From a virus (lineage: Duplodnaviria; Caudoviricetes): DNA of 53,091 nucleotides. The first letter of the stretch is position 1; each line of letters starts with the position of its first letter. The stretch lies in IMG/VR virus record IMGVR_UViG_3300021963_000167, positions 1 through 53,091 of that record; one strand, written 5' to 3'. The translations under genes were made by a program, and so were the position numbers. The notes under the pieces were generated by a model. The model worked only from the letters and a program-made list of their open reading frames with translations. It searched no databases and had not been told where the DNA came from. This document shows positions 24,365 to 51,922 of this stretch, piece by piece.

Positions 24365-24372
24365 TATTTATG
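24365..24372 (-). promoter_or_regulatory. Late promoter CATAAATA
   Basis: Motif ~17 nt upstream of g8. Confidence 0.55.
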
Positions 24373-41028: not shown

Positions 41029-41070
41029 ATAATAACACTGGTGCCCCCCAGCGTCAACTAGAGGGCACAC
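41029..41070 (-). promoter_or_regulatory. sigma70-type promoter TTGACG-N17-TATTAT with the -35 in the loop of a GC-rich stem
   Basis: -35 at 41057-41052, -10 at 41034-41029; arms GTGCCCTCTAG / CTGGGGGGCAC. Confidence 0.7.
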
Positions 41071-41277: not shown

Positions 41278-41520
41278 TCATACCTTACTCTCTAGGACCT
41301 CACGATACATCTCAACGTTGAAAGGTTCGGGATAGGCAGTACAGAACTTGTCCACAGTGTCGATCATTTCGTAGGCAGCAACATTTGCATCCTCATCATA
41401 ATCATCTGTCTGTGTGCATTCTTGATAGTAACTGGTGTTCTTGGCGACATAGATCAGATCACGCAGTATCTTATATTCACTGTCGGTCAGAGTGAGAGTG
41501 ATCTTGGTGGAGATTTTCAT
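41278..41520 (-). CDS. Hypothetical protein
   Basis: Track ORF; ACACTTT leader like neighbours. Confidence 0.7.
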   Translation of the reverse strand: MKISTKITLTLTDSEYKILRDLIYVAKNTSYYQECTQTDDYDEDANVAAYEMIDTVDKFCTAYPEPFNVEMYREVLESKV

Positions 41521-41598
41521 TAAGAAAGTGTAAGAAACTGTGAGACTGGGAAGAGTATATTTAATGACCCCTCTGCCTAATGGGTCAGTATACCTTAC

Positions 41599-41757
41599 TC
41601 AGGCAGCGATAAGTTCACGATACTCTTCGAATTGCAGAAGTTCGCTATAGAAACTGTCATCGTTCGGAGTGCTCATCGTAGGAATGCGATTGATAGCATC
41701 ATAGCATTGCTGAACGATCTCATCAAAAGTATACTGAGAAGAAGGAACGTAGCGCAT
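41599..41757 (-). CDS. Hypothetical protein (52 aa)
   Basis: Hand-translated MRYVPSSQYTFDEIVQQCYDAINRIP...EEYRELIAA. Confidence 0.6.
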   Translation of the reverse strand: MRYVPSSQYTFDEIVQQCYDAINRIPTMSTPNDDSFYSELLQFEEYRELIAA

Positions 41758-41856
41758 GAGAGTGTGTGTTAAAGTGTGCTGTGAGAGATACAGTGTTGCC
41801 CCTGTGGCTGCCTTGTGGGATGTACTCTTAGCAATCCCACTGTCTGATACTAATTC

Positions 41857-42111
41857 CTAGAAATCGAACACATCAGAGTTAAGTTGAATCACGTTAACTT
41901 TCGGATCATCAAACCTCACACCGTCCTTAGTTTCCTTCACGCCATACTCTTCATAAAGACGATTTACCAGGGTTTCGTAATCACCACACTCAGCAGCAAG
42001 ATGATACAAACCCTCATCATTGTTGATCCACAGTGCAACGTTCCAGGTCTCATAATTCTCCCAACCATTATAGGAAACGTCGAGAGCATTACGTTGGAAA
42101 GTGGTAGTCAT
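41857..42111 (-). CDS. Conserved phage hypothetical protein (YNGWxNYETWNVALW type)
   Basis: Motif visible; start moved to MTTTFQ at 42111 to avoid overlap with the upstream gene. Confidence 0.75.
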   Translation of the reverse strand: MTTTFQRNALDVSYNGWENYETWNVALWINNDEGLYHLAAECGDYETLVNRLYEEYGVKETKDGVRFDDPKVNVIQLNSDVFDF

Positions 42112-42145
42112 TTTAGGAAAAGTGTGATGGTAAAGTGTAACGGAA

Positions 42146-42328
42146 TCAGGCGAACTTTTGCTCTTGAATACGCTCCCAGAGTTCCTCAATCTGTTTGTAG
42201 GTAAGCGTCACTTTCCCATCAAAATCCAGAAAGTCGTCTTCAGTTTTGCCGCACCAATCTTCAATACAATGCATCAGAAATTCTGCTTCTTCGAAGGTAA
42301 CGGAAACGGCAGGAGTTGCGGTGATCAT
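42146..42328 (-). CDS. Hypothetical protein
   Basis: Track ORF; TTACACTTTTCTCC leader. Confidence 0.65.
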   Translation of the reverse strand: MITATPAVSVTFEEAEFLMHCIEDWCGKTEDDFLDFDGKVTLTYKQIEELWERIQEQKFA

Positions 42329-42349
42329 TTGGAGAAAAGTGTAAGGAAT

Positions 42350-42526
42350 TCAGTTAGAAGTGAGACGGAAGATTGTGTTGATTTTTGCATCAATCGAATC
42401 TGCAATCTCAGACTCTTCATCACCATAATCGGCATAATCTTTCAGTGCGGAACTGATAGCGTCCCACTCTGCATCTGTGAAGAGTTGGCGATAGATGGAA
42501 GCGGAGAGGTTTTGGTTGGTGTTCAT
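42350..42526 (-). CDS. Hypothetical cassette protein (58 aa)
   Basis: MNTNQNLSASIYRQLFTDAEWDAISSALKDY...; ATG supplied by repeat copy 1. Confidence 0.7.
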   Translation of the reverse strand: MNTNQNLSASIYRQLFTDAEWDAISSALKDYADYGDEESEIADSIDAKINTIFRLTSN

Positions 42527-42554
42527 ACTACTGATGCACTTTCAGGGGCCCAGT
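42525..42554 (-). repeat. 30-bp intergenic element, copy 1 (exact)
   Basis: + strand ATACTACTGATGCACTTTCAGGGGCCCAGT. Confidence 0.97.
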
Positions 42555-42558
42555 AGTG

Positions 42559-42735
42559 TTAACTCAGACGGTCTTCGATATCATTGAGAACTGCAGCTAT
42601 GACCTCTGTGCTATCCTCACCGTTCTCCTCTAGTTGTTGCATTACGTCTTGCAACTGTGGTAGAATTGCGGTGACGATTTCAGGCACCCGAATCATCACT
42701 CCACTGCCCAAATTCTTATACTTTAGGGGTCTCAT
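42559..42735 (-). CDS. Putative small DNA-binding protein (ribbon-helix-helix-like), 58 aa
   Basis: MRPLKYKNLGSGVMIRVPEIVTAILPQLQDVMQQLEE...; basic arm, IRVP strand, then helices. Confidence 0.55.
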   Translation of the reverse strand: MRPLKYKNLGSGVMIRVPEIVTAILPQLQDVMQQLEENGEDSTEVIAAVLNDIEDRLS

Positions 42736-42787
42736 AGTTTTGATAGCATAACTGGGGGTATTTATGGGGGGTTATGCTATCAAAACT
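42736..42787. repeat. Perfect 17-bp inverted repeat enclosing a CATAAATA late-promoter motif
   Basis: AGTTTTGATAGCATAAC (42736-42752) / GTTATGCTATCAAAACT (42771-42787). Confidence 0.9.
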
Positions 42788-42799
42788 CAAAGTGCTGTT

Positions 42800-42973
42800 T
42801 TACCACCTTTCAGGGCAACTTAGGTCTTCGACATAAGCATCCACACGCTCAGCTGGTTCCAGTTGAAATAGTTTCTCCCAGTCAATCTGATGCGGGTCGA
42901 AGTCTGGAAACGCTGAAATATCCAAGGTCACTCTATAACGTACCTTCTGTGCTTGTTGAAATGCAACCGACAT
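42800..42973 (-). CDS. Hypothetical protein (57 aa)
   Basis: MSVAFQQAQKVRYRVTLDISAFPDFDPHQIDWEKLF...; AGGAG RBS and own promoter. Confidence 0.75.
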   Translation of the reverse strand: MSVAFQQAQKVRYRVTLDISAFPDFDPHQIDWEKLFQLEPAERVDAYVEDLSCPERW

Positions 42974-43002
42974 AAGTGTGCTCCTGAACGTGTTATCAGA
43001 CC

Positions 43003-43031
43003 ACTATAAGTCTTCTGGGGCAGAAAGTCAA
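43003..43031 (-). promoter_or_regulatory. sigma70-type promoter TTGACT-N17-TATAGT
   Basis: -35 at 43031-43026, -10 at 43008-43003. Confidence 0.75.
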
Positions 43032-43113
43032 GGTCTTGGGGGTATTTATGATGGCGTGGGTGTATTTTTGAGGGGTGTGTGAGGGTTTATGAACGTCCGG
43101 AGCGGGATTATAC

Positions 43114-43142
43114 TTGACGGAATCGCGTTTCTGTGTTAGCGT
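43114..43142 (+). promoter_or_regulatory. Possible sigma70-type promoter TTGACG-N17-TAGCGT with extended TG
   Basis: -35 at 43114-43119, -10 at 43137-43142; points into the DnaA-box cluster. Confidence 0.45.
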
Positions 43143-43203
43143 CGCCTAAGATAACGAGCCCCAGAGACATTTAAAGAGCACAAGTTCTCCACCATTTTAA
43201 CAG

Positions 43204-43259
43204 TTTTCCACACCTTTTTCCACACTTTTATTATACTTTTTCCACAGGGCTGTGGAATA
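43204..43259. promoter_or_regulatory. Cluster of cyanobacterial-type DnaA-box sequences
   Basis: TTTTCCACA at 43204, 43216, 43238; inverted 1-mismatch copy TGTGGAATA at 43251. Confidence 0.6.
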
Positions 43260-43285
43260 CTTAAGTCAGAAAATGCACACTTAAG

Positions 43286-43293
43286 TATAAATA
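43286..43293 (+). promoter_or_regulatory. Late promoter TATAAATA for the GIY-YIG gene
   Basis: Exact motif; overlaps inverted repeat ATACTTAAGT (43257-43266) / ACTTAAGTAT (43279-43288). Confidence 0.7.
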
Positions 43294-43319
43294 ACACAGG
43301 TATATTTTTTACGTTTTTG

Positions 43320-44336
43320 ATGGCATATATTTACTCAATCACCAACCTTGAAAGTAACAAACTCTATGTGGGTAAGACTAGCAAACCTAACCCCTATGAT
43401 AGATGGAAACAACATCTACAATTAGCAAGGAGTTTCAATAACTTACAAGAAAACAATTCTGCTCTCTCTATGCCTATACTTCGTGCTATCAGTAAATACG
43501 GAGCAGACAACTTTAAGTTTAGAGTGATTGAAGAATGTGATGATGATAAAGTAAATGAACGTGAAATGTATTGGATACAAAAACTAGAAGCAAATGGTAA
43601 GAATGGTTATAACATAACATTAGGTGGTGAAGGTATAAAGAAACCAAAAAAGTATTGGTCTAATCATCCTCATTCCAAAGCAGTAAGTTGTTATACATTA
43701 GAAGGTGAATGGATTAAAGACTATGAGAGTATAGGATTAGCAGTAGATGATGTAAGTGAAAAGAAAAAAGGTGGTCCCATTCGTGCTTGCATTAAGGGTA
43801 CAACATTTCAAGCATTTGGTTATAGGTGGAGTTGGAAAGGTGAGGAACTTAAGTTAATTGAAAAAAGAGTAAATGTTCGTGGTAATGTATATGGTATCAA
43901 TCCAACATTAGGACAAAAAAAGATGTGGAAGTCGATGGCAGATGCAGCAGAAGAAATAACTGGAAATCGTAAGAATAATGCAACTATTTCATACTCTTTA
44001 TGCAGTCCCAATCATAACAAATACCACGCTTATGATTGGTATTTTTTTAGAACAAAACCTACAAAATGGAAGGCAGCGGAGCATAAAGGATTTACAACTG
44101 AAAGTGCAAAGAAAGCAGGTAAAATAAGTGCAGAAAAAACTAAAAAACCTGTCTATGGAGTAAGTATTACAACGGGTGAAATTGTAGAGTTTGATAGCAT
44201 ATTAGCAGCTTCATATTTTATTAAAGGTGATGGAAATAAAAACGGAGTTGCTAACATTTGGAGTAACATTCAACGTATAAAGAACGGGCAAACTTGGTGT
44301 TATGCTTTTGGTTACAGATGGTATGAGAAGCAATAA
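43320..44336 (+). CDS. Free-standing GIY-YIG homing endonuclease (Seg-like) with repeated NUMOD1-like domains
   Basis: AYIYSITN...KLYVGKT, RWKQH, AISKYGADNF, REMYWI, NGYNIT.GG; three C-terminal repeats ending in GYRW-like motifs. Confidence 0.88.
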   Translation: MAYIYSITNLESNKLYVGKTSKPNPYDRWKQHLQLARSFNNLQENNSALSMPILRAISKYGADNFKFRVIEECDDDKVNEREMYWIQKLEANGKNGYNITLGGEGIKKPKKYWSNHPHSKAVSCYTLEGEWIKDYESIGLAVDDVSEKKKGGPIRACIKGTTFQAFGYRWSWKGEELKLIEKRVNVRGNVYGINPTLGQKKMWKSMADAAEEITGNRKNNATISYSLCSPNHNKYHAYDWYFFRTKPTKWKAAEHKGFTTESAKKAGKISAEKTKKPVYGVSITTGEIVEFDSILAASYFIKGDGNKNGVANIWSNIQRIKNGQTWCYAFGYRWYEKQ

Positions 44337-44365
44337 AAAAGCAGAGAATTACCAGTCCTCTGCTT
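44335..44365 (-). terminator. Rho-independent terminator at a convergent junction
   Basis: AAGCAGAG/CTCTGCTT stem followed by a T-run on the minus strand. Confidence 0.65.
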
Positions 44366-44454
44366 ATACACCCAACCACCATTTGATTGAATTATCTATA
44401 CTCTACGATGTAACTTTGTTGTATAGCAGAGGCAAACATCTTCCTCTTCATCTA

Positions 44455-44592
44455 TTAGACTTGTCCTCCTTGAATCAGTTGAATTGCATCACAGATTGAA
44501 CTTGTTTGACTATAACATTCACCTGTAGTTACATTGCATACAGCATACATGAGTTCACGAGAATGAATGTCGAAAGTATAACGAATGGTCAT
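44455..44592 (-). CDS. Hypothetical protein (45 aa)
   Basis: MTIRYTFDIHSRELMYAVC...; ATGA overlap with upstream ORF. Confidence 0.6.
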   Translation of the reverse strand: MTIRYTFDIHSRELMYAVCNVTTGECYSQTSSICDAIQLIQGGQV

Positions 44593-44732
44593 TGGATTTG
44601 AGAATTAGGAACTTCTTGAATTGTTTCTTGAATTGTGATAATTTGATTCGTTTGAGTAAGGTATTCAGTTTGCATTACATTCGGACCAATGATAGATTGA
44701 CCGACAATAGTTGCGACTAGGAGTTCAATCAT
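44589..44732 (-). CDS. Hypothetical protein (47 aa)
   Basis: MIELLVATIVGQSIIGPNVMQTEYL...; ATGA overlaps on both sides. Confidence 0.6.
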   Translation of the reverse strand: MIELLVATIVGQSIIGPNVMQTEYLTQTNQIITIQETIQEVPNSQIQ

Positions 44733-44905
44733 TGTGCGTTTTCAGAATAAAGAATGTCGTTCACTATTTGGCGAAACTTATCAGCATCAGTCACACATTC
44801 ATGAGATAATTGTGAATCTTCGATGTCGTATTGTTTCATCTCTAGCGTGTGAATCACGTCATTCATGATTTCAGTCAATGCGAAAAGTTTGTCTGCGTCA
44901 GTCAT
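44729..44905 (-). CDS. Hypothetical protein (58 aa)
   Basis: MTDADKLFALTEIMNDVIHTLEMKQY... Confidence 0.65.
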   Translation of the reverse strand: MTDADKLFALTEIMNDVIHTLEMKQYDIEDSQLSHECVTDADKFRQIVNDILYSENAQ

Positions 44906-45002
44906 TGAAAAAGTGTAGAATTAAAAGTGCAATTTGTTGATCACTGAATACATCTAACTCATCATCAGTGAATGTACTTAACAGAGAGAGAACTTGCGTC
45001 AT
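44898..45002 (-). CDS. Possible 34-aa peptide
   Basis: MTQVLSLLSTFTDDELDVFSDQQIALLILHFFND fills the gap between neighbours. Confidence 0.4.
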   Translation of the reverse strand: MTQVLSLLSTFTDDELDVFSDQQIALLILHFFND

Positions 45003-45008
45003 TAGGAT

Positions 45009-45320
45009 TCAGTCGAGTTTGATACCATTGTTGAAAGGAACATCACCATTGGATGTTGATACAAACCATTGATAGTTCTTTTGATAGACATACTCTCCAG
45101 ATCCATGAGTTTGGAGAATAGCATTGAGACGGGACTTTGTGGTGTTTGATTGATACCCGCCATCGAACAATTCAAGGAAAGTATCAGCAACCATTGCAAT
45201 CAGATTGTTATACAGATAAACGAAACTTACGCCTTCGATGTTAATGACTTTCGTATTGTCGCATTTCCAATCCTTTTCATTCAGGATTGCATCATTCATT
45301 TGTGATTCGATCTTACGCAT
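45009..45320 (-). CDS. Conserved phage hypothetical protein
   Basis: MRKIESQMN..., GGYQSNTTKSRLNAIL, VYQKNYQWFV. Confidence 0.8.
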   Translation of the reverse strand: MRKIESQMNDAILNEKDWKCDNTKVINIEGVSFVYLYNNLIAMVADTFLELFDGGYQSNTTKSRLNAILQTHGSGEYVYQKNYQWFVSTSNGDVPFNNGIKLD

Positions 45321-45363
45321 TTGTGGTTTGGGAAGTGTAATAAAGTGAGAAAGAGTTTGTGTA

Positions 45364-45570
45364 TCAGACCTTCATTTTTGCAAGGTCTTTCATACAGGAA
45401 GGCATCATCTCCTGAACGTACTCATAGAAGTAAGAGTTATTCATCGAAGATAATTGCTGACGCTCTGCTTCTTCACTTCCATCAACAAACTCTGACTCAG
45501 TATCAATCAGGCAGTCAATGTACCAGTCGATTAAGATTTGGCGTTGTGCTTTGGTGAGAAAGGTAGTCAT
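45364..45570 (-). CDS. Hypothetical cassette protein
   Basis: Starts 20 nt after repeat copy 2. Confidence 0.7.
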   Translation of the reverse strand: MTTFLTKAQRQILIDWYIDCLIDTESEFVDGSEEAERQQLSSMNNSYFYEYVQEMMPSCMKDLAKMKV

Positions 45571-45590
45571 TTTGTTTTGGTTGAGTGGTG

Positions 45591-45620
45591 ATACTACTGA
45601 TGCACTTTCAGGGGCCCAGT
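45591..45620 (-). repeat. 30-bp element, copy 2 (exact; followed by C, no ATG)
   Basis: Direct match. Confidence 0.97.
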
Positions 45621-45621
45621 A

Positions 45622-45783
45622 TCAGTAACGTTGGCGATCATGAATTGACTCATTCCATCCGTTACGATAGTATTCACGAGCATCATAATCTTCTGCGGTG
45701 AAATGATCATCGTGCTCGGGTTCTTCATAGTAAGCATCAAACTTAGAATACGATTCTCCTTTATAGAAACTGGTGGTAGTCAT
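45622..45783 (-). CDS. Hypothetical acidic Tyr-rich protein (53 aa)
   Basis: MTTTSFYKGESYSKFDAYYEEPEHDD...; stop 1 nt before copy 2. Confidence 0.65.
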   Translation of the reverse strand: MTTTSFYKGESYSKFDAYYEEPEHDDHFTAEDYDAREYYRNGWNESIHDRQRY

Positions 45784-45941
45784 TTGTGATTCTGAAAGTT
45801 GTTTGCGTTGTTTGTTTGAACTGCATTGATTGTCTGGTTCTGAACAAACCTAACTCCGTTGTCCAGAATAGGTGCAAGACCGTTAAAGCCTACCGTTCCG
45901 ACTGAAATACCAAGAACGGTTCCAAGTATAAAGGATTTCAT
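45780..45941 (-). CDS. Small membrane/signal-peptide protein
   Basis: MKSFILGTVLGISVGTVGFNGLAPILD...; start moved to ATG 45941. Confidence 0.65.
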   Translation of the reverse strand: MKSFILGTVLGISVGTVGFNGLAPILDNGVRFVQNQTINAVQTNNANNFQNHK

Positions 45942-45970
45942 TCTGCAATGTTGTAGTTTGAGATTAGAAA

Positions 45971-46243
45971 TCAAGCAAGAATTGGAGATTTGATGTTCAG
46001 AAATAGCATACGAATTGGTTGCTCTTGAATGTAAAAGAACACAGCATAATCGTCATCCAGTTCGATGTCTCCATCTACCTGTGAGAGATCAACATAATCA
46101 TTCCCATCATTGTCTGCGATGTAAGGATTATCGTCCGTATCATACCCTACAAAGTATAGCGTATCATTCGCACACACAGCATAAGCATTAGCAAGCAAAT
46201 TATGAAACTGATCGAGAGTAATTGTTTGAGTAGTTTGAGTCAT
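45971..46243 (-). CDS. Hypothetical protein
   Basis: Track ORF. Confidence 0.7.
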   Translation of the reverse strand: MTQTTQTITLDQFHNLLANAYAVCANDTLYFVGYDTDDNPYIADNDGNDYVDLSQVDGDIELDDDYAVFFYIQEQPIRMLFLNIKSPILA

Positions 46244-46281
46244 TTTGTGTGATTGTAGTTTGTGTTAAGTATAAAGGAGAA

Positions 46282-46626
46282 TCAAACTCCCAGGTCAACA
46301 AGTTTCAGGAAAACATTCTTGAGTGCAACTACCTTACCGTTCACAGTGTAAGAGTAACGAACTCCACCCTTTACAGTAGGTGAGCAACGGCAATAGAGTT
46401 TGACCTCGTTAATTTTATCACCTTGCTGATTGTGCAGAGGAAAGTAATAAGAACACTCACCAGCAATATATGAAGCTTTGGAGCGAGAATCAACAACAAC
46501 GGTAGAGTTCAGGCGGTCAATAATACCATTGCGAGCATCATAATTATCGCGGGCAAGTTTGGATGCAAGATTGATGCTATCTTGAATGTCGTTGATGGTC
46601 ATTTGGGAGATTTGGGTGTTGCTCAT
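46282..46626 (-). CDS. Hypothetical cassette protein
   Basis: ATG supplied by repeat copy 3. Confidence 0.75.
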   Translation of the reverse strand: MSNTQISQMTINDIQDSINLASKLARDNYDARNGIIDRLNSTVVVDSRSKASYIAGECSYYFPLHNQQGDKINEVKLYCRCSPTVKGGVRYSYTVNGKVVALKNVFLKLVDLGV

Positions 46627-46654
46627 ACTACTGATGCACTTTCAGGGGCCCAAT
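46625..46654 (-). repeat. 30-bp element, copy 3 (1 mismatch)
   Basis: Ends ...GGGGCCCAAT on + strand. Confidence 0.97.
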
Positions 46655-46786
46655 TCAATAATTGGGAACAACTGCGAGATGATACTCTGGGTGAACAAGT
46701 GAGAGATCAAAAGCATAACGATCTGCTTCAGATTTAGTGAAGAAACATACTATTGCGACAGATGCAAGATAGAGAGTGTAAGTCAT
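46655..46786 (-). CDS. Single-gene cassette protein (43 aa)
   Basis: MTYTLYLASVAIVCFFTKSEADRYAFDLSLVHPEYHLAVVPNY; fills the space between copies 4 and 3, stop abuts copy 3. Confidence 0.65.
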   Translation of the reverse strand: MTYTLYLASVAIVCFFTKSEADRYAFDLSLVHPEYHLAVVPNY

Positions 46787-46806
46787 TTTAGTTTGAATCA
46801 GTGGTG

Positions 46807-46836
46807 ATACTACTGATGCACTTTCAGGGGCCCAGT
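46807..46836 (-). repeat. 30-bp element, copy 4 (exact; no ATG)
   Basis: Direct match; flanks AGTGGTG and ATCAGT shared with copy 2. Confidence 0.97.
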
Positions 46837-46837
46837 A

Positions 46838-47005
46838 TCAGTTACTTACTGAAACCCAGTTGTTACCATCATACTCAACCATCTCTCCATCGACTATACA
46901 AAACTCCATCAAATAATAATCAAGATTTACGCCAAGTTCATCAGCTTCGGATTTGAGTTCAGTAAATTGTTGAACGTCAAGAATAAAGAAATTAGTTTCA
47001 ATCAT
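46838..47005 (-). CDS. Hypothetical protein (55 aa)
   Basis: MIETNFFILDVQQFTELKSEADELGVNLDYYLMEFC...; stop 1 nt before copy 4. Confidence 0.65.
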   Translation of the reverse strand: MIETNFFILDVQQFTELKSEADELGVNLDYYLMEFCIVDGEMVEYDGNNWVSVSN

Positions 47006-47006
47006 C

Positions 47007-47168
47007 TTACCAATTAATGAGTGTAGCTGTGTTGCCTAGTTGATTTTGTTCGTTAATGATTTCCTCTGCGTGTGCATAAGTTTTAACTGTGATGTATCGT
47101 GCTTTGCCTCTTGTTTCAGGAAACAAATTGAGACGGTCAATGATACGAACTGTGTTAGAATGTTTCAT
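47007..47168 (-). CDS. Hypothetical protein (53 aa)
   Basis: MKHSNTVRIIDRLNLFPETRGKARYI...; TGATG coupling. Confidence 0.65.
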   Translation of the reverse strand: MKHSNTVRIIDRLNLFPETRGKARYITVKTYAHAEEIINEQNQLGNTATLINW

Positions 47169-47404
47169 CAGTGAGTGTTAAGAACGTGACGATAATTGAG
47201 AGAAACTACACACCATTCAGCATAATCTGTAACCTCTTCAACTAAAACATCTGCAATTTCATCATCATCATTTGGATTGAGAACTTCAACCTCAAAGACA
47301 TTACCAACGACAGAATCTACAACTTCTTGTTGTTGCTCTTCAGTGAAATCTTCATCATCAAAATCAAACAAAACTTCGGTGACTTGGAGTGTAAGAGTTC
47401 TCAT
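47168..47404 (-). CDS. Hypothetical acidic protein
   Basis: Track ORF MRTLTLQVTEVLFDFD... Confidence 0.75.
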   Translation of the reverse strand: MRTLTLQVTEVLFDFDDEDFTEEQQQEVVDSVVGNVFEVEVLNPNDDDEIADVLVEEVTDYAEWCVVSLNYRHVLNTH

Positions 47405-47406
47405 AA

Positions 47407-47556
47407 TCAGTTCAGTTGGTTAAAGTTATCAACGACAATTTGGCAGGCAAGAGACTTAACTTCATCCAGGTAATCTACCTCACCAAATTGAGATTCAAGA
47501 AGACAAATTAGATCCTCTTGGAGTTGTTCGCGGACAGAGAGTAGTTGAGTGTTCAT
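47407..47556 (-). CDS. Hypothetical protein (49 aa)
   Basis: MNTQLLSVREQLQEDLICLL...LACQIVVDNF. Confidence 0.65.
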   Translation of the reverse strand: MNTQLLSVREQLQEDLICLLESQFGEVDYLDEVKSLACQIVVDNFNQLN

Positions 47557-47559
47557 AAT

Positions 47560-47733
47560 TCAGACAGTAGCAGGAGAGAGGGAAACTTCGACTCGTTTGA
47601 GATTCAAACCTTGCAGTTGTTCATTCACACGTTTGCAGATAGCTTCAGTTGGATTCTTGAGTTTGGACTTTTCGTACCAAATAGTACGACAACCGTCATT
47701 AGTTTCGACTTGAATACGAATAGTTTTCATCAT
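47560..47733 (-). CDS. Hypothetical protein (57 aa)
   Basis: MMKTIRIQVETNDGCRTIWYEKSK... Confidence 0.65.
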   Translation of the reverse strand: MMKTIRIQVETNDGCRTIWYEKSKLKNPTEAICKRVNEQLQGLNLKRVEVSLSPATV

Positions 47734-47736
47734 CAA

Positions 47737-47904
47737 TCAGATAACAGAGTAACAAGCAACAGAGGAAGGAATACCAGATAATGCTAAAGAACCGTTGCGA
47801 TCATCAGCATAATCGTAGGCATCATCTTCGCTGTAGAAAGGTCCAATAAACTCAGGAGAATCGAGAGCGTTGGAATCGAATCGGACGGTGTAGGTGGTGT
47901 TCAT
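47737..47904 (-). CDS. Hypothetical cassette protein (55 aa)
   Basis: MNTTYTVRFDSNALDSPEFIGPFYSEDDAYDYA...; its only Met is the repeat-supplied ATG. Confidence 0.7.
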   Translation of the reverse strand: MNTTYTVRFDSNALDSPEFIGPFYSEDDAYDYADDRNGSLALSGIPSSVACYSVI

Positions 47905-47932
47905 ACTACTGATGCACTTTCAGGGGCCCAGT
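47903..47932 (-). repeat. 30-bp element, copy 5 (exact)
   Basis: Direct match. Confidence 0.97.
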
Positions 47933-47937
47933 TGTTA

Positions 47938-48117
47938 TCAAAGACCGTTGATAAAGTCAGCGAGTGCCTCATCATACTCCTCTTGAGTGTTGTAAATACG
48001 ACCGTAAATGTTGAGAGGAAACTGTTTCTTAAGACCAGCAGCTGCAACAGTTTGACAGTCTTTCTCATCATAACCCATTTCGATGAGATTCTGAACGTAG
48101 GGATTGAAGTGTGTCAT
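47938..48117 (-). CDS. Single-gene cassette protein (59 aa)
   Basis: MTHFNPYVQNLIEMGYDEKDC...EEYDEALADFINGL; fills the space between copies 6 and 5. Confidence 0.75.
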   Translation of the reverse strand: MTHFNPYVQNLIEMGYDEKDCQTVAAAGLKKQFPLNIYGRIYNTQEEYDEALADFINGL

Positions 48118-48145
48118 ACTACTGATGCACTTTCAGGGGCCCAGT
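48116..48145 (-). repeat. 30-bp element, copy 6 (exact)
   Basis: Direct match. Confidence 0.97.
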
Positions 48146-48166
48146 TGTGATTAACTTGCAGAAAAC

Positions 48167-48358
48167 TTATAGAGTTTGAAATGCCTCTGCACGGGTGTTT
48201 TCATACTTTTTCTTGAGATACTTTTGTGTGATACTATCAATCACAGGATACCACTGTTCTTTATTGGAAAGGTAGCTAATACCTCGTGCATCGTTGAGAA
48301 GAAAGATGATACAGTTCTCCTCATCTTGAGTGAGATTCAGTCGATTGAGAATAGTCAT
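48167..48358 (-). CDS. Hypothetical protein
   Basis: Start moved to MTILNRLNL at 48358. Confidence 0.65.
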   Translation of the reverse strand: MTILNRLNLTQDEENCIIFLLNDARGISYLSNKEQWYPVIDSITQKYLKKKYENTRAEAFQTL

Positions 48359-48434
48359 TTTTTGTAGTTGTAAGGTTGTGCAATCCAAACAATTTGTTTA
48401 GTTTTAAGGTCAGAAGCCATGTTGTAAATCATAA

Positions 48435-48593
48435 TCAATCGTCTCCAAAATTGTTTACAAGAAAGTCCTCAAGTTCTGTGAATTGGTCTTCATTCAAGTT
48501 GAGAACATACTCGTTAATAATTGTATTCACAAGGTCAACATCTTGAAGGCATTTTTCTTCAAGAATCTCAATCATTTCCTGTCGTGAAGTCAT
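48435..48593 (-). CDS. Hypothetical acidic protein (52 aa)
   Basis: MTSRQEMIEILEEKCLQDVDLVNTIINEYV... Confidence 0.65.
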   Translation of the reverse strand: MTSRQEMIEILEEKCLQDVDLVNTIINEYVLNLNEDQFTELEDFLVNNFGDD

Positions 48594-48595
48594 AA

Positions 48596-48877
48596 TCAAA
48601 CTAGATTAAGTTCAGGAGCAGGTTCAACCTTAAAGTTACCAAATCGACCACAAGAGATAGAAACAGCGTGAGAAGGTGCGCCGAGTTCATCAACAACATC
48701 CCAGAAATCTTCACCTTCTTCGATTACAACATAACCGAAAGTTCCAGCATTAGAAAGTTGGTCAAGTCCGCAACGTTCAGCAGCACGTTGAGTGGAAAAT
48801 CGCTCTTTACGATTCCACCAACCGTTTCGTGCTACATCTTCACTTGGACCGAAAGTGATGCAAATAAAATCAGACAT
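48596..48877 (-). CDS. Hypothetical protein
   Basis: Start moved to MSDFICITFG at 48877. Confidence 0.7.
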   Translation of the reverse strand: MSDFICITFGPSEDVARNGWWNRKERFSTQRAAERCGLDQLSNAGTFGYVVIEEGEDFWDVVDELGAPSHAVSISCGRFGNFKVEPAPELNLV

Positions 48878-48878
48878 T

Positions 48879-49007
48879 TTAGTAGTTTTCTTTGGTGTTT
48901 TGTTGACGTTGAGAATCTTTATCTTCCTTGAATGGTTTATACTCAGGATGAGCATTTTCCTATTTGATTAGTTCATCAATCCAGGAAGAGTTTTGATTAG
49001 TTTTCAT
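48879..49007 (-). pseudogene. Small ORF interrupted by an in-frame TAG
   Basis: MKTNQNSSWIDELIK*ENAHPEYKPFKEDKDSQRQQNTKENY*; TAG at 48962-48960. Confidence 0.5.
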
Positions 49008-49014
49008 AATCCTA

Positions 49015-49272
49015 TCAGGCAACTTGAATAGCGCGGGAACCGAAGGTTTTGTTTAGCATTTGTTGGAAAGCTTGTTTGCCTCCATTCTCCCAACGTTGAT
49101 CCATTTCAACTTTGAGAGCATCACGGAATTGCAGAGTTTGCTCTACAGTCAGACCAGGATAGTTGGTATTGTGCTGAATACGCTTAGTCACAATGTTCCA
49201 CTGATGATCTAATCCAGCATCGCTAGCTTCTTGGACAAAAGAGAAATCGTAGGTCATTTGGGTTGTGCTCAT
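49015..49272 (-). CDS. Hypothetical cassette protein
   Basis: ATG supplied by copy 7. Confidence 0.75.
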   Translation of the reverse strand: MSTTQMTYDFSFVQEASDAGLDHQWNIVTKRIQHNTNYPGLTVEQTLQFRDALKVEMDQRWENGGKQAFQQMLNKTFGSRAIQVA

Positions 49273-49300
49273 ACTACTGATGCACTTTCAGGGGCCCAGT
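49271..49300 (-). repeat. 30-bp element, copy 7 (exact)
   Basis: Direct match. Confidence 0.97.
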
Positions 49301-49305
49301 AACTA

Positions 49306-49758
49306 TCAGCAACTGAACATAAGTGCTCCGATACCTGCTCCAAAAATACCCCACGAATTACTTCTTTTGTTTCCATAAGAATAATTGTAACTACCAGAGT
49401 TACGATTGCGAGTATAGTTAGAATTGTAGTTGTATCCTGTTTGACCTGAGAGTGCAGTTGCTAAACCATAACCAACCGCAGCACCTGCGGTAGGATTACA
49501 AACTCGCTGACGATAGTATGGTTGTTGATTGTAGTATGGTTGAGGATTTACAACCACATTATCACCACAAGGAACACGATTGCGAGCACGATTTACATAA
49601 CCAGGAATGTATCTACCATAAGCATCATAATACCCAGGAACGTATTGTTCTACATTTGTATAACAATAGCTTTCACCATAAACATTCACTTGTTGTGCCT
49701 GAGTTGGTGCAACAAATGCAAATGGAAGTAAGAGTGAAAGAGTGAGTAGATGTTTCAT
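49306..49758 (-). CDS. Exported protein with signal peptide and glycine-zipper-like C-terminus
   Basis: MKHLLTLSLLLPFAFVAPTQA-Q; EQYVPGYY..G.YIPGYV; GAAVG and GAGIG segments. Confidence 0.75.
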   Translation of the reverse strand: MKHLLTLSLLLPFAFVAPTQAQQVNVYGESYCYTNVEQYVPGYYDAYGRYIPGYVNRARNRVPCGDNVVVNPQPYYNQQPYYRQRVCNPTAGAAVGYGLATALSGQTGYNYNSNYTRNRNSGSYNYSYGNKRSNSWGIFGAGIGALMFSC

Positions 49759-50022
49759 TTACCAAGTACCATTTTGGATGTGGATCTTTTTGATTTCAGT
49801 ATAAAGAAACTGACGAAGTTTAGTGTCTGTGGTGTTATCAAAAGCATAATAGAGGCGATTGAGGTATTCTTTCTGTGTGGTGCATTTGACTACTTTTGCA
49901 TCAGTTACACCAATACCATTTAGGGGAGAACCTGCTTTAGATTTTGGAACACCAAAGTTACCCGTAATGTTACCCTTTGTCCTAAACTGAGTTTTAATCT
50001 TGGAGAGATTAGAGTAAGTCAT
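49759..50022 (-). CDS. Hypothetical basic protein
   Basis: Track ORF, tightly packed. Confidence 0.75.
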   Translation of the reverse strand: MTYSNLSKIKTQFRTKGNITGNFGVPKSKAGSPLNGIGVTDAKVVKCTTQKEYLNRLYYAFDNTTDTKLRQFLYTEIKKIHIQNGTW

Positions 50023-50228
50023 CGTGGAAACACAAGATTGTATTTGGAGATTAGCAAATCACGCACACATTCACGATCAATACTATCACCAGCAAACTCA
50101 TCTCCTTTCAGTTTAAGTATCTTGAGATGCGTAGAAGTTGCTTGTTTGATGAGTTTCAGAGTTGCACCCATAGGATACAATCCATCGGGACCATAGAAAG
50201 AGAGAACATAATCGTAAAAGTCAGTCAT
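50019..50228 (-). CDS. Hypothetical protein
   Basis: MTDFYDYVLSFYGPDGLYPM...DSIDRECVRD; start moved to 50228. Confidence 0.7.
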   Translation of the reverse strand: MTDFYDYVLSFYGPDGLYPMGATLKLIKQATSTHLKILKLKGDEFAGDSIDRECVRDLLISKYNLVFPR

Positions 50229-50229
50229 T

Positions 50230-50436
50230 TCAGTTACAATCATAGTTGTTGAGAATGTTACGGGCAAACTTCATAAAATCGTATGCAGTTACACCACCTT
50301 TGTGATTATCAACAGCATAACCATCAAGCATGTCTGTCTGGTTGTAGGTATTCACAATCAGCAAACAAGCATCATAAAGTGCTGCCTGATGTTCTTCTTC
50401 AGAGTGAAAAGAGATTGCGTTGTGGGAGGGAAGCAT
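50230..50436 (-). CDS. Hypothetical protein
   Basis: Track ORF. Confidence 0.7.
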   Translation of the reverse strand: MLPSHNAISFHSEEEHQAALYDACLLIVNTYNQTDMLDGYAVDNHKGGVTAYDFMKFARNILNNYDCN

Positions 50437-50441
50437 AATAA

Positions 50442-50600
50442 TCAGTTGGTAGGTTCAGTAATCCAAATTGCACGATCAGTTCCCATAGTAAACTGATTGT
50501 CCCAAATGAAATGAGTTGCTTGCTGATTGCTCATCTGAAACTCACTCATCAGAAAGTTGAGTGCCTCTTTGAAACTTTGGAAGCGGTGTGTGGTTCTCAT
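50442..50600 (-). CDS. Hypothetical cassette protein (52 aa)
   Basis: MRTTHRFQSFKEALNFLMSEFQMSNQQATHFIWDNQF...; ATG from copy 8. Confidence 0.7.
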   Translation of the reverse strand: MRTTHRFQSFKEALNFLMSEFQMSNQQATHFIWDNQFTMGTDRAIWITEPTN

Positions 50601-50628
50601 ACTACTGATGCACTTTGAGGGGCCCAGT
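50599..50628 (-). repeat. 30-bp element, copy 8 (1 mismatch)
   Basis: ...CACTTTGAGGGGCCCAGT on + strand. Confidence 0.97.
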
Positions 50629-50841
50629 TCAATTCATAGCAAGAACAAGATTAGCAACACGATTTTCAGGCACGAAATCCTGAAGTTTATCATAAATCAG
50701 TTGAAATTGATCTACCATATTTTCATAATAAACTGCAAGATGTGGATCAGAAACCATTTGTGCCTTAAGTTGGAGACTATCCATAATGTCCAGGATTTCG
50801 CCAGAGGTGAATGAAATTTGCGTCATTTCAGTTGTGCTCAT
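50629..50841 (-). CDS. Single-gene cassette protein
   Basis: Starts in copy 9; stop abuts copy 8. Confidence 0.75.
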   Translation of the reverse strand: MSTTEMTQISFTSGEILDIMDSLQLKAQMVSDPHLAVYYENMVDQFQLIYDKLQDFVPENRVANLVLAMN

Positions 50842-50869
50842 ACTATAGGGACACTTTCAGGGGCCCAAT
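50840..50869 (-). repeat. 30-bp element, copy 9 (variant, 6 mismatches)
   Basis: + strand ATACTATAGGGACACTTTCAGGGGCCCAAT. Confidence 0.9.
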
Positions 50870-50877
50870 TTCAATCA

Positions 50878-51378
50878 TTAACGAATAAGACGATAACCTT
50901 TACAAGGCATCTGTGGATTTCTCAAGGATCTTAACATATTTCCTGATGATTTAAGACCTAAAACTTCACGACACCATTTTGTAAGATTTGTAACTTCAAT
51001 GGTTTCTCCCGTTGGTGTTTCAATAAGTCGCGTTTTTGCTTGTGAATATGCTACATTATCAGCATTACTCATCCATTCCAAGTTCTCAACCCTGTTATCA
51101 GTTTTATCCTCATTGATGTGATTAACTGTATCATAGTTGTGAGGATTTGGAATGTAAGTTTCTGCTACTAATCTATGAATACTTGTACTTTTCATTCTAT
51201 CGGTATTTTGTTCCAGAATGATTGTTAAATAACCTTTACGATTTGGTTGTGGTTTTAGTTCTCTTTTGTATGAATAATCAAGAACTTTTCCTTTACCATT
51301 TCCTCCAGATTTTTTGTGTGAGAATACTCTACCATCAGGTGTGATGGAGTATTCGGGATAGTTTGGAATGAGTTTCAT
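50878..51378 (-). CDS. Free-standing HNH homing endonuclease
   Basis: YSITPDGRVFS N-terminus; HRLVAETYIPNP...VNHINEDKTDNRVENLEW. Confidence 0.9.
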   Translation of the reverse strand: MKLIPNYPEYSITPDGRVFSHKKSGGNGKGKVLDYSYKRELKPQPNRKGYLTIILEQNTDRMKSTSIHRLVAETYIPNPHNYDTVNHINEDKTDNRVENLEWMSNADNVAYSQAKTRLIETPTGETIEVTNLTKWCREVLGLKSSGNMLRSLRNPQMPCKGYRLIR

Positions 51379-51381
51379 AAC

Positions 51382-51429
51382 TGATTGGAAGTGATTTATC
51401 TCTATTTATAAGTATAACACTTCCAATCA
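51382..51429 (-). promoter_or_regulatory. 12-bp hairpin enclosing late promoter TATAAATA, upstream of the HNH gene
   Basis: TGATTGGAAGTG (51382-51393) / CACTTCCAATCA (51418-51429); promoter at 51410-51403. Confidence 0.8.
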
Positions 51430-51435
51430 CATTAG

Positions 51436-51879
51436 TCAACGTTTGTATAAGTATCCTCCACACCAAGTTGCATTTTCCAGCAACCATTCACGATCTTTGA
51501 TCAATCGCAGATCATAACGAACACCTTTCGCAGGAGATTTCCACGATGCAGACTTATACACTTCTCCAGTATTCTTATCCACAAAAGCGTGAACGGAACG
51601 GGCAATGTGACGCTCAGGACCATTATCAATCACCATAATGATTTTGTGATACTTTTTACCACTTTCAATCACATAAGAATAGTTACATTCACCATTCTTC
51701 AGTTTAGCAATACAATTCTCGTGATAATCTGTATTGTCTCCATTAGACAGAGAACGATAATGAGACTTGATGATATAATCAATAAAGTTTTGACGAAGTG
51801 CTTCACATAGTGCTTGCGTATGACGCAGAACACTATCACAAATTGTTTCTTGTGCTTGTTGTTGAAGAGTTGCAGTCAT
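51436..51879 (-). CDS. Conserved phage hypothetical protein
   Basis: GKKYHKII...SVHAFVDKNTGEVYKSASWKSPAKGVRY; starts 13 nt after copy 10. Confidence 0.8.
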   Translation of the reverse strand: MTATLQQQAQETICDSVLRHTQALCEALRQNFIDYIIKSHYRSLSNGDNTDYHENCIAKLKNGECNYSYVIESGKKYHKIIMVIDNGPERHIARSVHAFVDKNTGEVYKSASWKSPAKGVRYDLRLIKDREWLLENATWCGGYLYKR

Positions 51880-51892
51880 TTTCTTTGTTCTG

Positions 51893-51922
51893 ATACTACT
51901 GATGCACTTTGAGGGGCCCAGT
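51893..51922 (-). repeat. 30-bp element, copy 10 (1 mismatch; no ATG)
   Basis: Same C>G variant as copy 8. Confidence 0.97.

What the first reader, a model, noticed from the sequence alone, without database searches (positions are those of the whole stretch)
42350..51922. Array of gene cassettes delimited by a near-identical 30-bp element that often supplies the start codon
Seen: ten same-orientation copies of ACTGGGCCCCTGAAAGTGCATCAGTAGTAT (minus strand) begin at + coordinates 42525, 45591, 46625, 46807, 47903, 48116, 49271, 50599, 50840 and 51893. Six are exact, three have one mismatch, one has six. In 8 copies the upstream gene's stop is 0-8 nt from the element. In 7 copies the final AT plus the next G is the ATG of the downstream ORF; in the other 3 an ATG follows 13-20 nt later. 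The three shortest units (182, 213, 241 bp) each hold exactly one ORF, and the cargo genes are unrelated small unknowns. Known parallels: integron cassette arrays and the PeSL regulatory cassettes that shuffle small genes in RB49-like T4 phages; this element lacks the attC palindrome, a TTGACA -35 and a PeSL stem. Inference: a combined expression and recombination module that lets early host-takeover genes be gained, lost or reordered as cassettes. Near-identity across 30 bp is more than a promoter normally needs.
Basis: partly seen in the sequence, partly recalled or inferred. Interest (0 to 1): 0.9.

Follow-up and report, generated by a model that had tools for sequence, protein, structure and literature searches.

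The report
Repeated early-gene promoter in a cyanophage
A 30-base sequence repeated ten times between small genes of a T4-like cyanobacterial virus is most likely that virus lineage's early-gene promoter; its copies sometimes recombine, but it is not a dedicated gene-cassette recombination system.

Summary
Ten co-oriented copies of a 30-bp element (six exact, three with 1 mismatch, one with 6) lie in the small-gene region of a 53-kb fragment of a T4-like cyanomyovirus (Kyanoviridae).

The element fills the stop-to-start gaps. It has an invariant GGGCCC box, AAA, TG and a -10-like T-A-n-T-R-T hexamer. It has no -35, no stem and no terminator.

The family occurs in at least 119 IMG/VR stretches, always on one strand. 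A complete 219-kb relative has 12 copies, confined to one region. The cultured phage S-SM2 has a homologous 12-copy element. By my hand count, Syn9's syntenic region shows a similar GC box, about 14 nt, then a hexamer.

Best reading: the lineage's early-gene promoter. The ATG overlapping the hexamer is a true start codon (49 of 51 in frame). It is probably served by read-through from upstream copies.

Copies do recombine: two exact one-cassette indels, concerted evolution, and half-element linkage to flanks. But element junctions break synteny no more often than element-free gene junctions, and no recombinase was found.

It behaves partly like a PeSL but is neither a PeSL nor an integron member.

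The parts
51893..51922 (-). Element copy E1 (1 mismatch). First of the array. The ATG lies 13 nt downstream (147-aa DUF7717 gene).
50840..50869 (-). Element copy E2 (6 mismatches). Its 3' half is of the S-SM2 type. An ATG overlaps its end (70-aa ORF).
50599..50628 (-). Element copy E3 (1 mismatch). An ATG overlaps its end (52-aa ORF).
49271..49300 (-). Element copy E4 (exact). An ATG overlaps its end (85-aa ORF), with a second in-frame ATG at codon 6.
48116..48145 (-). Element copy E5 (exact). It starts the 213-bp one-gene unit (59 aa, phrog_649 aligned from residue 1). This unit is absent from relative G001.
47903..47932 (-). Element copy E6 (exact). An ATG overlaps its end (55-aa ORF with no other ATG).
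46807..46836 (-). Element copy E7 (exact). It starts the 182-bp one-gene unit (43 aa; ATG 20 nt downstream). This unit is absent from G001.
46625..46654 (-). Element copy E8 (1 mismatch). An ATG overlaps its end (114-aa ORF).
45591..45620 (-). Element copy E9 (exact). The ATG lies 20 nt downstream. The unit runs to the terminator-like hairpin at 44339-44365.
42525..42554 (-). Element copy E10 (exact). An ATG overlaps its end (58 aa, phrog_35733 aligned from residue 3).
44339..44365 (-). Terminator-like hairpin plus T run. It closes the block E1-E9 and is the only such site inside the array.
41041..41068 (-). Terminator-like G+C-rich hairpin at the end of the small-gene region, ahead of the baseplate genes.
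43003..43031 (-). Ordinary sigma-70-like promoter match (TTGACT, 17 nt, TATAGT) ahead of the two small genes that precede E10.
41278..51922 (-). The whole small-gene (early-type, hyperplastic) region that holds the ten copies: about 40 short minus-strand ORFs by my hand list.

Best explanation
The element is the early-gene promoter of one lineage of T4-like cyanomyoviruses (Kyanoviridae), repeated in front of blocks of one to six small genes.

Anatomy (shown). It has an invariant GGGCCC box, then T, AAA, TG, then about six variable bases, then a hexamer T-A-n-T-R-T with the conservation pattern of a -10 box. After the hexamer comes a conserved purine-A-n-C-A-C and a C/A-rich stretch with no Shine-Dalgarno sequence.

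How it works (inferred).
- Host RNA polymerase binds the hexamer as a -10 box. The GC box stands roughly where a -35 would be.
- Transcription starts about 7-8 nt after the hexamer and runs through all downstream units, because there is no terminator until 44339-44365. The early mRNAs are therefore nested.
- Where the hexamer overlaps an ATG, that ATG is the gene's true start. It is translated from transcripts that began at an upstream copy. A copy's own transcript serves a second in-frame ATG or the following genes.

Recombination. Because the copies are near-identical direct repeats in a phage with very active homologous recombination, they also cross over and convert each other. This occasionally deletes, inserts or swaps a unit. 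That is a by-product, not a dedicated recombination system.
For: Position.
- All 10 copies are co-oriented with the genes and fill the stop-to-start gaps.
- In 120 sequences with 546 copies, the 84 sequences that were tested for it never had copies on both strands.
- In the complete 219-kb relative G001, 12 copies lie on one strand: 11 between 199.7 and 213.9 kb and 1 at 5.0 kb.
- The window's array lies just ahead of the baseplate genes, as the small-gene block gp55-gp93 does in Syn9.

Sequence.
- In 88 distinct copies T25, T28 and T30 are invariant and A26 is 84 of 88, as in a TAnnnT -10 box. G4-C9, A13-15 and T17 G18 are also invariant.
- A32 is 81 of 88 and A35 is 73 of 88. The next 15 nt are almost free of G.

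Relatives.
- S-SM2 has 12 same-strand copies of a related element in its small-gene region. By my hand alignment of the and consensus sequences, 23 of 36 positions are shared.
- Window copy E2 carries the S-SM2-type 3' half.
- Syn9's small genes show, by my hand count, a GC box, about 14 nt, a hexamer, then 16-21 nt to the ATG.
- The 37 copies here without an overlapping ATG have their ATG 13-45 nt downstream.

No rival signal. No RNA structure, no Rfam family, no terminators between units.

Read-through.
- First copies of arrays carry the overlapping ATG in 2 of 12 cases, against 235 of 410 later copies (Fisher p = 0.0065).
- The window's own first copy E1 lacks it.

Recombination as by-product.

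Recalled, not seen: the abstract of Doron et al. 2016 (ISME J) reports a novel regulatory element controlling early genes of Syn9 and P-TIM40, conserved among T4-like cyanophages.
Against: - No transcript data. No RNA run was listed, so promoter activity and the start site are inferred from sequence only.
- There is no recognisable -35.
- The pattern was found in none of the cellular genomes scanned, apart from two short MAG contigs that look like phage fragments. It therefore does not mimic a common host promoter and may need an extra factor.
- The ATG overlapping the hexamer is a real start codon. It is in frame with an ORF of at least 30 codons in 49 of 51 copies. Twenty of those 49 have no other in-frame ATG within 45 nt. 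PHROG profiles align from residues 1-3 for two such genes. A start site downstream of the hexamer cannot serve those genes, which is awkward for a promoter placed right in front of them.
- The 2 of 12 result rests on related contigs. By my reading of the sequences printed they represent about 8 independent loci, so it is only suggestive.
- Syn9's four identical copies have TATAAG, which lacks the final T of a -10 box. A formal CCCC-N14-TAnnnT count found only 1 site in Syn9's early region and was not above the control (9 hits vs 5). The paper that maps Syn9 start sites could not be read.
Confidence: 0.65

Rival explanations
1. A dedicated expression-and-recombination cassette module. The element is the site at which gene cassettes are excised, inserted and reordered, as in PeSL mini-circles or integron cassettes. 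This function is what keeps the 30 bp near-identical.
For: - Relative G001 has one element where the window has E5-gene-E6 (213 bp) and another where it has E7-gene-E8 (182 bp). It also has an E1/E3 hybrid context in place of the 1.3 kb from E1 to E3.
- L009 has the E6-type unit before the E5-type unit, with both matches starting 1 nt before an element.
- Copies within a contig differ by 3.10 mismatches on average, against 5.24 between contigs (0 of 300 label shuffles as low).
- The 5' half of the element follows the upstream flank (1.17 vs 1.45 mismatches). The 3' half follows the downstream flank (2.97 vs 3.80). This is what crossovers inside the element would produce.
Against: - In the same window-G001 comparison, indels of 223, 233, 383, 325 and 236 bp and several replacements lie at gene borders without an element.
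- Across 120 sequences, linkage of flanks across 437 element junctions is about the same as across 918 element-free junctions inside arrays. Downstream to upstream: 0.08 vs 0.12, 0.21 vs 0.27, 0.33 vs 0.55, 0.94 vs 0.97. In the other direction the sign reverses in two of four bins.
- Distinct upstream neighbours per gene family: 0.44 vs 0.45, p = 0.75.
- No tyrosine or serine recombinase in the window or in complete G001.
- No palindrome or stem.
- Metagenome contigs can be chimeric between strains.
Confidence: 0.15
2. A promoter for leaderless early mRNAs. Transcription starts at the A of the ATG at the end of the element, so each unit is a self-sufficient promoter-plus-gene module whose start codon is supplied by the element.
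For: - The ATG at positions 29-31 is a true start codon (49 of 51 in frame; PHROG alignments from residues 1-3).
- Position 29 is always a purine (77 A, 11 G of 88).
- There is no Shine-Dalgarno sequence anywhere in the array (read).
Against: - The only -10-like hexamer overlaps that ATG. The six bases where a -10 box for such a start would lie (positions 17-22, TGCATC) lack the key A and T.
- 37 of 88 copies have no ATG there.
- First copies of arrays tend to avoid the overlapping ATG (2 of 12 vs 235 of 410). A leaderless design would not predict this.
Confidence: 0.1
3. An RNA-level signal within one long early transcript, such as a processing site or the binding site of a translational regulator (for example a RegA-like protein), rather than a promoter.
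For: - The element always lies just upstream of, or overlapping, a start codon and just after a stop codon.
- Cyanomyoviruses carry regA (passage in PMC2984593).
Against: - No stable or conserved RNA fold.
- The variants CAG to CTA at positions 22-24 are not compensated elsewhere.
- The distance to the start codon varies from 0 to 45 nt.
- The conservation pattern T-A-n-T-R-T fits a DNA -10 box.
- No Rfam family.
Confidence: 0.07

Closest known systems
PeSLs (promoter-early stem-loops) of RB49/phi1 and other T4-like phages (Arbiol et al. 2010, PMC2839356, abstract and sections 13 and 16 read; Comeau et al. 2014, PMC4122927, abstract and introduction read)
   Same: - Repeated, co-oriented regulatory motifs in the hyperplastic small-gene regions of a T4-like phage.
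- They start right after the upstream stop codon and end at the downstream start codon.
- Some gene presence/absence differences between close relatives are bounded by two copies, leaving a single hybrid copy.
   Different: - No sigma-70 consensus -35.
- No AT-rich upstream tract.
- No stem-loop or terminator.
- No Shine-Dalgarno sequence.
- About 36 conserved bp rather than about 100.
- Here the element junctions are not richer in synteny breaks than other gene junctions.
- Mini-circles could not be tested.
Early-gene regulatory element of Syn9 and P-TIM40 (Doron et al. 2016, ISME J; paper not held, abstract recalled only)
   Same: - Lies upstream of small genes in the block ahead of the baseplate genes of a T4-like cyanophage.
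- Not a standard sigma-70 promoter.
- In the Syn9 sequence itself I see, by hand count, a GC box, about 14 nt, a hexamer, and a short C/A-rich leader.
   Different: - The sequence differs.
- Syn9 also has an upstream GGTGnCnAC-like box and mostly TATAAG. Its best repeat is a 24-mer in 4 copies, and no ATG overlaps the hexamer.
- The window pattern has no match above control in Syn9, S-SM2 or Bellamy.
- A formal CCCC-N14-TAnnnT count in Syn9 was not above control.
- Whether Doron's published motif is the one I picked out in Syn9 is unverified.
The 12-copy element of Synechococcus phage S-SM2 (NC_015279, 42.7-58.5 kb). I found no description of it in the passages of its genome paper that I saw (PMC3037559).
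   Same: - Homologous by my hand alignment: 23 of 36 positions shared, including GGG, AAAG, G18, TAGTAT and the following GAGCAC.
- Same strand and same kind of region.
- The ATG overlapping the hexamer is annotated as the start of SSM2_041, 070, 071 and 075.
   Different: - The 5' box is GGGGGGTCG rather than GGGCCCC.
- The middle is GTCCCTA rather than GCATCAG.
- By eye it could form a short hairpin (GGG-T-CGC, loop, GCG-T-CCC) that the window's version cannot. This was not tested on the full sequence.
Integron gene cassettes with attC sites
   Same: Arrays of short, co-oriented, mostly single-function units separated by a repeated sequence.
   Different: - No imperfect palindrome.
- No integrase.
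- In an integron the cassettes are promoterless and read from one common promoter. Here the repeat itself looks like the promoter.

Membership tests
PeSL (Arbiol et al. 2010) | Strong sigma-70-like promoter with consensus -35 and -10 boxes | tested here: not met
   A -10-like hexamer is present. None of the 40 sigma-70-type sites is an element copy. Seventeen nt upstream of the hexamer the sequence is CTGGGC.
PeSL (Arbiol et al. 2010) | Stable stem-loop that acts as terminator or attenuator | tested here: not met
   folds of three window copies with flanks give z = -1.27, +0.58 and +0.45; no terminator-like site at any copy.
PeSL (Arbiol et al. 2010) | AT-rich tract upstream of the -35, and a Shine-Dalgarno sequence before the start codon | tested here: not met
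   Upstream of the element the information content is near zero, apart from the upstream gene's stop codon. No GGAG-type sequence precedes the start codons (read).
PeSL (Arbiol et al. 2010) | Located in hyperplastic regions, mostly just upstream of ORFans | tested here: met
   The copies occur only in the small-gene region. Eleven of 20 cargo ORFs have no PHROG match and 8 match families of unknown function.
PeSL (Arbiol et al. 2010) | Differential genes between close relatives are bounded by the motif | tested here: inconclusive
   Two exact one-unit indels, plus three events with one end at or within 23 nt of an element, out of about 12 events against G001. There is no excess of breaks at element junctions over 120 sequences.
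PeSL (Arbiol et al. 2010) | Mini-circles formed by exchange between neighbouring motifs | not testable with these tools
   No sequencing run was listed, so read laying could not be used.
Integron cassette array | attC site: imperfect palindrome that folds as single-stranded DNA | tested here: not met
   No significant fold. The only self-complementary part is the 6-bp GGGCCC.
Integron cassette array | Tyrosine-recombinase integrase next to the array | tested here: not met
   PF00589 has no match in the window or in the complete relative G001. PF00239 likewise has none.
Early-gene regulatory element of T4-like cyanophages (Doron et al. 2016, recalled) | Lies upstream of early-expressed genes, with mapped start sites | not testable with these tools
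   No RNA data. The paper is not held. The position is syntenic with Syn9 gp55-gp93.
Early-gene regulatory element of T4-like cyanophages (Doron et al. 2016, recalled) | Shares the published motif | tested here: inconclusive
   The published logo was not seen. By hand count Syn9 shows a GC box, about 14 nt, a hexamer, then 16-21 nt to the ATG. The window's exact pattern is absent from Syn9. A formal CCCC-N14-TAnnnT count in Syn9 was not above the control.
Bacterial sigma-70-type promoter | -10 hexamer TAnnnT with conserved T, A and final T | tested here: met
   T25 88 of 88, A26 84 of 88, T30 88 of 88.
Bacterial sigma-70-type promoter | Start site 6-9 nt downstream of the hexamer that serves the gene behind it | tested here: inconclusive
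   In 51 of 88 copies the gene's start codon overlaps the hexamer. No transcript data are available.

The most novel reading that the evidence does not exclude
These phages use an early promoter type that no host promoter resembles: a GGGCCC box plus a hexamer, with no -35. It would be read with the help of a factor brought in with the virion or made at once. The promoter is fused to the start codon, so that promoter plus gene forms a minimal 180-240-bp mobile unit. Such units spread within and between genomes by crossovers inside the element, which would make them a cyanophage counterpart of PeSL mini-circles. Some early mRNAs may be leaderless.
Probability: 0.15. Interest if true: 0.65.

Novelty: new member of a known kind. 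Interest (0 to 1): 0.35.

Why it matters
How T4-like cyanophages start their infection programme is only partly understood. They lack the T4 proteins that retune the host polymerase (passages in PMC2984593).

This element gives a sharply defined, abundant, lineage-specific candidate early promoter. It occurs in at least 119 IMG/VR stretches. A homologue sits in a cultured phage (S-SM2), where it can be tested directly.

It can also be used to mark early genes in uncultured cyanophage contigs.

The comparison adds a caution. Repeated promoters do recombine, but in this lineage gene shuffling is just as frequent at gene borders without them. The cassette look of such arrays should therefore not be read as a dedicated recombination system.

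Tried and rejected
Searches that found nothing or only chance matches
- Cultured phages carrying the window's element: blastn of a 51-nt query against 50,697 GenBank phage records gave only chance 26-nt matches in T5-like phages.
- Pattern searches in S-SM2, Bellamy and Syn9 gave no match or none above control.
- A simple CCCC-N14-TAnnnT count was not enriched in Syn9 or S-SM2. Syn9 gave 9 hits against 5 in the control and S-SM2 gave 9 against 10. This is partly because Syn9's hexamer is TATAAG.
- Known RNA family: none. tRNA or tmRNA: none.
- T4-type late promoter (TATAAATA, a motif recalled from memory): 4 matches against 8.15 expected. It says nothing here.
- RNA evidence: no RNA holder was listed.
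- Host mimicry: the family pattern occurs in only 2 short MAG contigs (2.2 and 2.5 kb) among the genomes scanned. They are probably mis-binned phage pieces.
- By eye I also considered an NtcA site and a sigma-54-type -24/-12 promoter and dropped both. The half-sites or the spacing do not fit. No call tested them.

A result that changed on re-analysis
- A first linkage test suggested more synteny breaks at element junctions.
- The difference largely disappeared when the controls were restricted to junctions inside the arrays. I report the latter.
- Those tests use crude ORF calls, 150-nt flanks and non-independent pairs.

Literature
- Searches.
- They found no paper in the held library that describes this element or PeSL-like cassettes in cyanophages. 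The exception is Puxty et al. 2015 (PMC4503421, passages seen), which judged PeSLs unlikely in S-PM2.
- Doron et al. 2016 is not held. Its content is recalled from the abstract only.
- Supplements were not consulted. Fig. S5 of Sullivan et al. 2010, which shows predicted promoter logos, could bear on S-SM2.

Full report
WHAT IS THERE

The 30-mer occurs nine times with at most three mismatches, all on the minus strand, where none is expected by chance. A tenth copy with six mismatches lies at 50840-50869. The core GGGCCCC occurs on the minus strand in these ten places only.

I call the copies E1 (51893) to E10 (42525), in the direction of the genes.
- The upstream stop lies 0-8 nt before the element in 8 of 10 copies.
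- An ATG is formed by the last two bases plus a G in 7 of 10 copies.
- In the other three the ATG lies 13, 20 and 20 nt downstream.
- There are three one-gene units, of 182, 213 and 241 bp.

CONTEXT

The window is a whole record of 53,091 bp, rated about 25% complete.

Positions 1-38,900 encode, on the minus strand, the structural module of a T4-like myovirus: portal, sheath, large terminase, neck proteins, baseplate wedge proteins, and two giant proteins of 2,625 and 4,070 aa.

The portal is 77-79% identical to those of Synechococcus phages S-SM2, Bellamy, SynMITS9220M01 and S-SCSM1. One small gene matches the Pfam family Kyano_Gp96. This is therefore a fragment of a Kyanoviridae cyanomyovirus.

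The array, about 41.3-51.9 kb, is the block of roughly 40 small genes just ahead of the baseplate genes (my hand list). This is the position of gp55-gp93 in Syn9.

Of 20 cargo ORFs scanned, 11 have no PHROG match, 8 match families of unknown function and one is an HNH homing endonuclease.

There is no terminator-like site between units. The first is at 44339-44365, after the unit of E9, and another at 41041-41068 closes the region.

THE FAMILY

The exact 27-base core is in 12 IMG/VR stretches.

Within a contig the copies are always on one strand. This was tested on the 84 sequences, and none had copies on both strands.

The complete 219-kb relative G001 has 12 copies: 11 between 199.7 and 213.9 kb and one at 5.0 kb.

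No GenBank phage carries the window's version. But S-SM2 has 12 same-strand copies of a related element in its own small-gene region, at 42.7-58.5 kb. By my hand alignment of the consensus sequences, 23 of 36 positions are shared. The window's divergent copy E2 has the S-SM2-type 3' half. The S-SM2 type is also in SynMITS9220M01.

In Syn9, the intergenic regions of the syntenic block show, by my hand count, a GC box (GCCCC or GGGTCG), about 14 nt, a hexamer (TATAAG, TATACT or TACTAT), and then 16-21 nt of C/A-rich leader before the ATG. A formal count of CCCC-N14-TAnnnT was not above control in Syn9, partly because TATAAG lacks the final T. This resemblance is therefore a lead, not a test.

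Cellular genomes hold the pattern only in two short MAG contigs that look like phage fragments.

ANATOMY

In 88 distinct copies (found with at most 7 mismatches, which inflates conservation), the following are invariant: G4-C9, A13-15, T17, G18, T25, T28 and T30. A26 is 84 of 88.

The last six bases thus read T-A-n-T-R-T, the conservation pattern of a -10 box. After the element come a purine (never T), A32 (81 of 88), then C-A-C, then a stretch almost free of G.

Upstream there is nothing conserved except the neighbour's stop codon. There is no -35 match, no stable fold and no Rfam family.

THE START CODON

Of the 88 copies, 51 have ATG at positions 29-31. In 49 of these that ATG opens at least 30 codons, where about one third would be expected if it were incidental. 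Twenty of the 49 have no other in-frame ATG within 45 nt.

PHROG profiles align from residue 1 (phrog_649, unit of E5) and residue 3 (phrog_35733, unit of E10). For the NPYVQNL family, homologues in other contigs differ by synonymous changes right after that ATG (read).

This clashes with a start site 6-9 nt after the hexamer. Two ways out exist.
- The gene is read from transcripts begun at an upstream copy. All units are co-transcribed, as there are no terminators.
- Or transcription starts at the A of the ATG, giving a leaderless mRNA.

The first option fits better. The bases where a -10 box for a leaderless start would lie (TGCATC) lack the key A and T. First copies of arrays also carry the overlapping ATG in only 2 of 12 cases, against 235 of 410 later copies (Fisher p = 0.0065). 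The window's E1 lacks it too.

Those 12 first copies include related contigs. By my reading of the sequences printed they come from about 8 independent loci, so this is suggestive only. No RNA run was listed, so nothing here is shown by transcripts.

RECOMBINATION

Against G001 (75-97% identity per segment), G001 has a single element where the window has E5-gene-E6 and another where it has E7-gene-E8. It has an element with E1's upstream flank and the start of E3's downstream flank in place of the 1.3 kb from E1 to E3.

Contig L002 lacks the HNH gene plus the E2 unit. L009 has the E6-type unit before the E5-type unit.

Copies are homogenised within contigs: 3.10 mismatches on average against 5.24 between contigs, with 0 of 300 shuffles as low. 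Genome-wide variants at position 10 stand out: C in the window (10 of 10), T in L105 (10 of 10), G in L061 (10 of 10).

Where only one flank is shared between two contigs, the half of the element next to that flank is the more similar one, as expected if crossovers fall inside the element.

But the same window-G001 comparison has indels of 223, 233, 383, 325 and 236 bp at gene borders without any element.

Over 120 sequences (546 copies, 437 element junctions, 918 element-free junctions inside arrays), the chance that both flanks stay together is about the same for both kinds of junction. The number of different upstream neighbours per gene family is 0.44 against 0.45, p = 0.75. An apparent excess came from controls outside the arrays.

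No tyrosine or serine recombinase is present in the window or in G001.

The copies therefore recombine as any 30-45-bp direct repeats would in a phage whose replication depends on homologous recombination (established for T4-like phages). They are not the privileged borders of mobile units. The whole region is shuffled gene by gene.

COMPARISON WITH WHAT IS KNOWN

PeSLs are defined by a consensus sigma-70 promoter, an AT-rich tract, a terminator stem-loop and a Shine-Dalgarno sequence spread over about 100 bp (PMC2839356, section 13). They mediate indels and mini-circles (section 16).

This element shares their location and, in part, their behaviour. It fails the -35, stem-loop, AT-tract and Shine-Dalgarno tests, so it is not a PeSL. 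It fails both integron tests: no attC-like palindrome and no integrase.

The nearest kind is the early-gene regulatory element reported for Syn9 and P-TIM40 and said to be conserved among T4-like cyanophages (Doron et al. 2016). I could not read that paper and cite only from memory of its abstract.

The passages I saw in the S-SM2 genome paper searched only for sigma-70, T4-late, Pho and NtcA promoters. A 2010 review called early and middle transcription in cyanomyoviruses unclear. My searches found no paper in the held library that describes this sequence.

VERDICT

This is a real, abundant, lineage-specific regulatory repeat. It is most likely the early promoter of this cyanophage lineage (confidence 0.65), with recombination between copies as a side effect.

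I file it as a new member of a known kind. The odd feature worth a bench test is the start codon buried in the -10-like hexamer.

Noticed in passing
window 50878-51378 (-), 43317-44336 (+), 52033-52653 (+): Three homing-endonuclease-type genes lie in or beside the array. One has HNH_3 plus NUMOD4, one has a GIY-YIG domain, and one is a NUMOD3-repeat protein. Relative G001 lacks the HNH gene and the GIY-YIG gene, and L002 lacks the HNH gene. They may contribute to the local gene turnover.
   Followed up: partly
window 42975-43316: A non-coding stretch of about 340 bp between the GIY-YIG gene and the next minus-strand gene. It holds repeated GTGGAAAA words and a good sigma-70-like promoter match (TTGACT, 17 nt, TATAGT at 43003-43031). 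A 14-base word, CATAAATACCCCCA, recurs near 43045 and 42765 (read). No tRNA or Rfam match.
   Followed up: no
window 14913-22790 and 24368-36580 (-): Two giant ORFs of 2,625 and 4,070 aa in the baseplate region. They have only DUF4815 and YHYH domain matches. They are presumably baseplate or fibre proteins.
   Followed up: no
L149 and L150 (genome contigs): Two short contigs of 2.2 and 2.5 kb, binned into MAGs labelled Thermoplasmataceae and Polynucleobacter, carry 1 and 4 copies of the element. They are probably mis-binned phage fragments. The Polynucleobacter label hints at a freshwater source for part of this phage lineage.
   Followed up: no
S-SM2 record NC_015279, 42.68-58.5 kb (L040): The S-SM2 version of the element could, by eye, form a short hairpin (GGG-T-CGC, 5-nt loop, GCG-T-CCC) just before its hexamer. 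That would be closer to the PeSL layout than the window's version. My two folds were cut inside the G run and do not test it properly.
   Followed up: partly
Syn9 record NC_008296, 46337, 48606, 51048, 53044: Four near-identical copies of a 24-mer (TCGTGTATTCTATAAGAGTCAAAG) lie upstream of small genes. The annotated GTG start of gp73 lies inside one copy and looks mis-called. An ATG follows about 33 nt later.
   Followed up: no
window 50840-50869 (E2) and contigs L007, L052: Some genomes mix element variants. In the window, 9 copies are of one type and 1 is of the S-SM2-like type. L007 has T at position 10 in 6 copies and C in 5. This suggests that single units are imported from other lineages together with at least the 3' half of their element.
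   Followed up: partly
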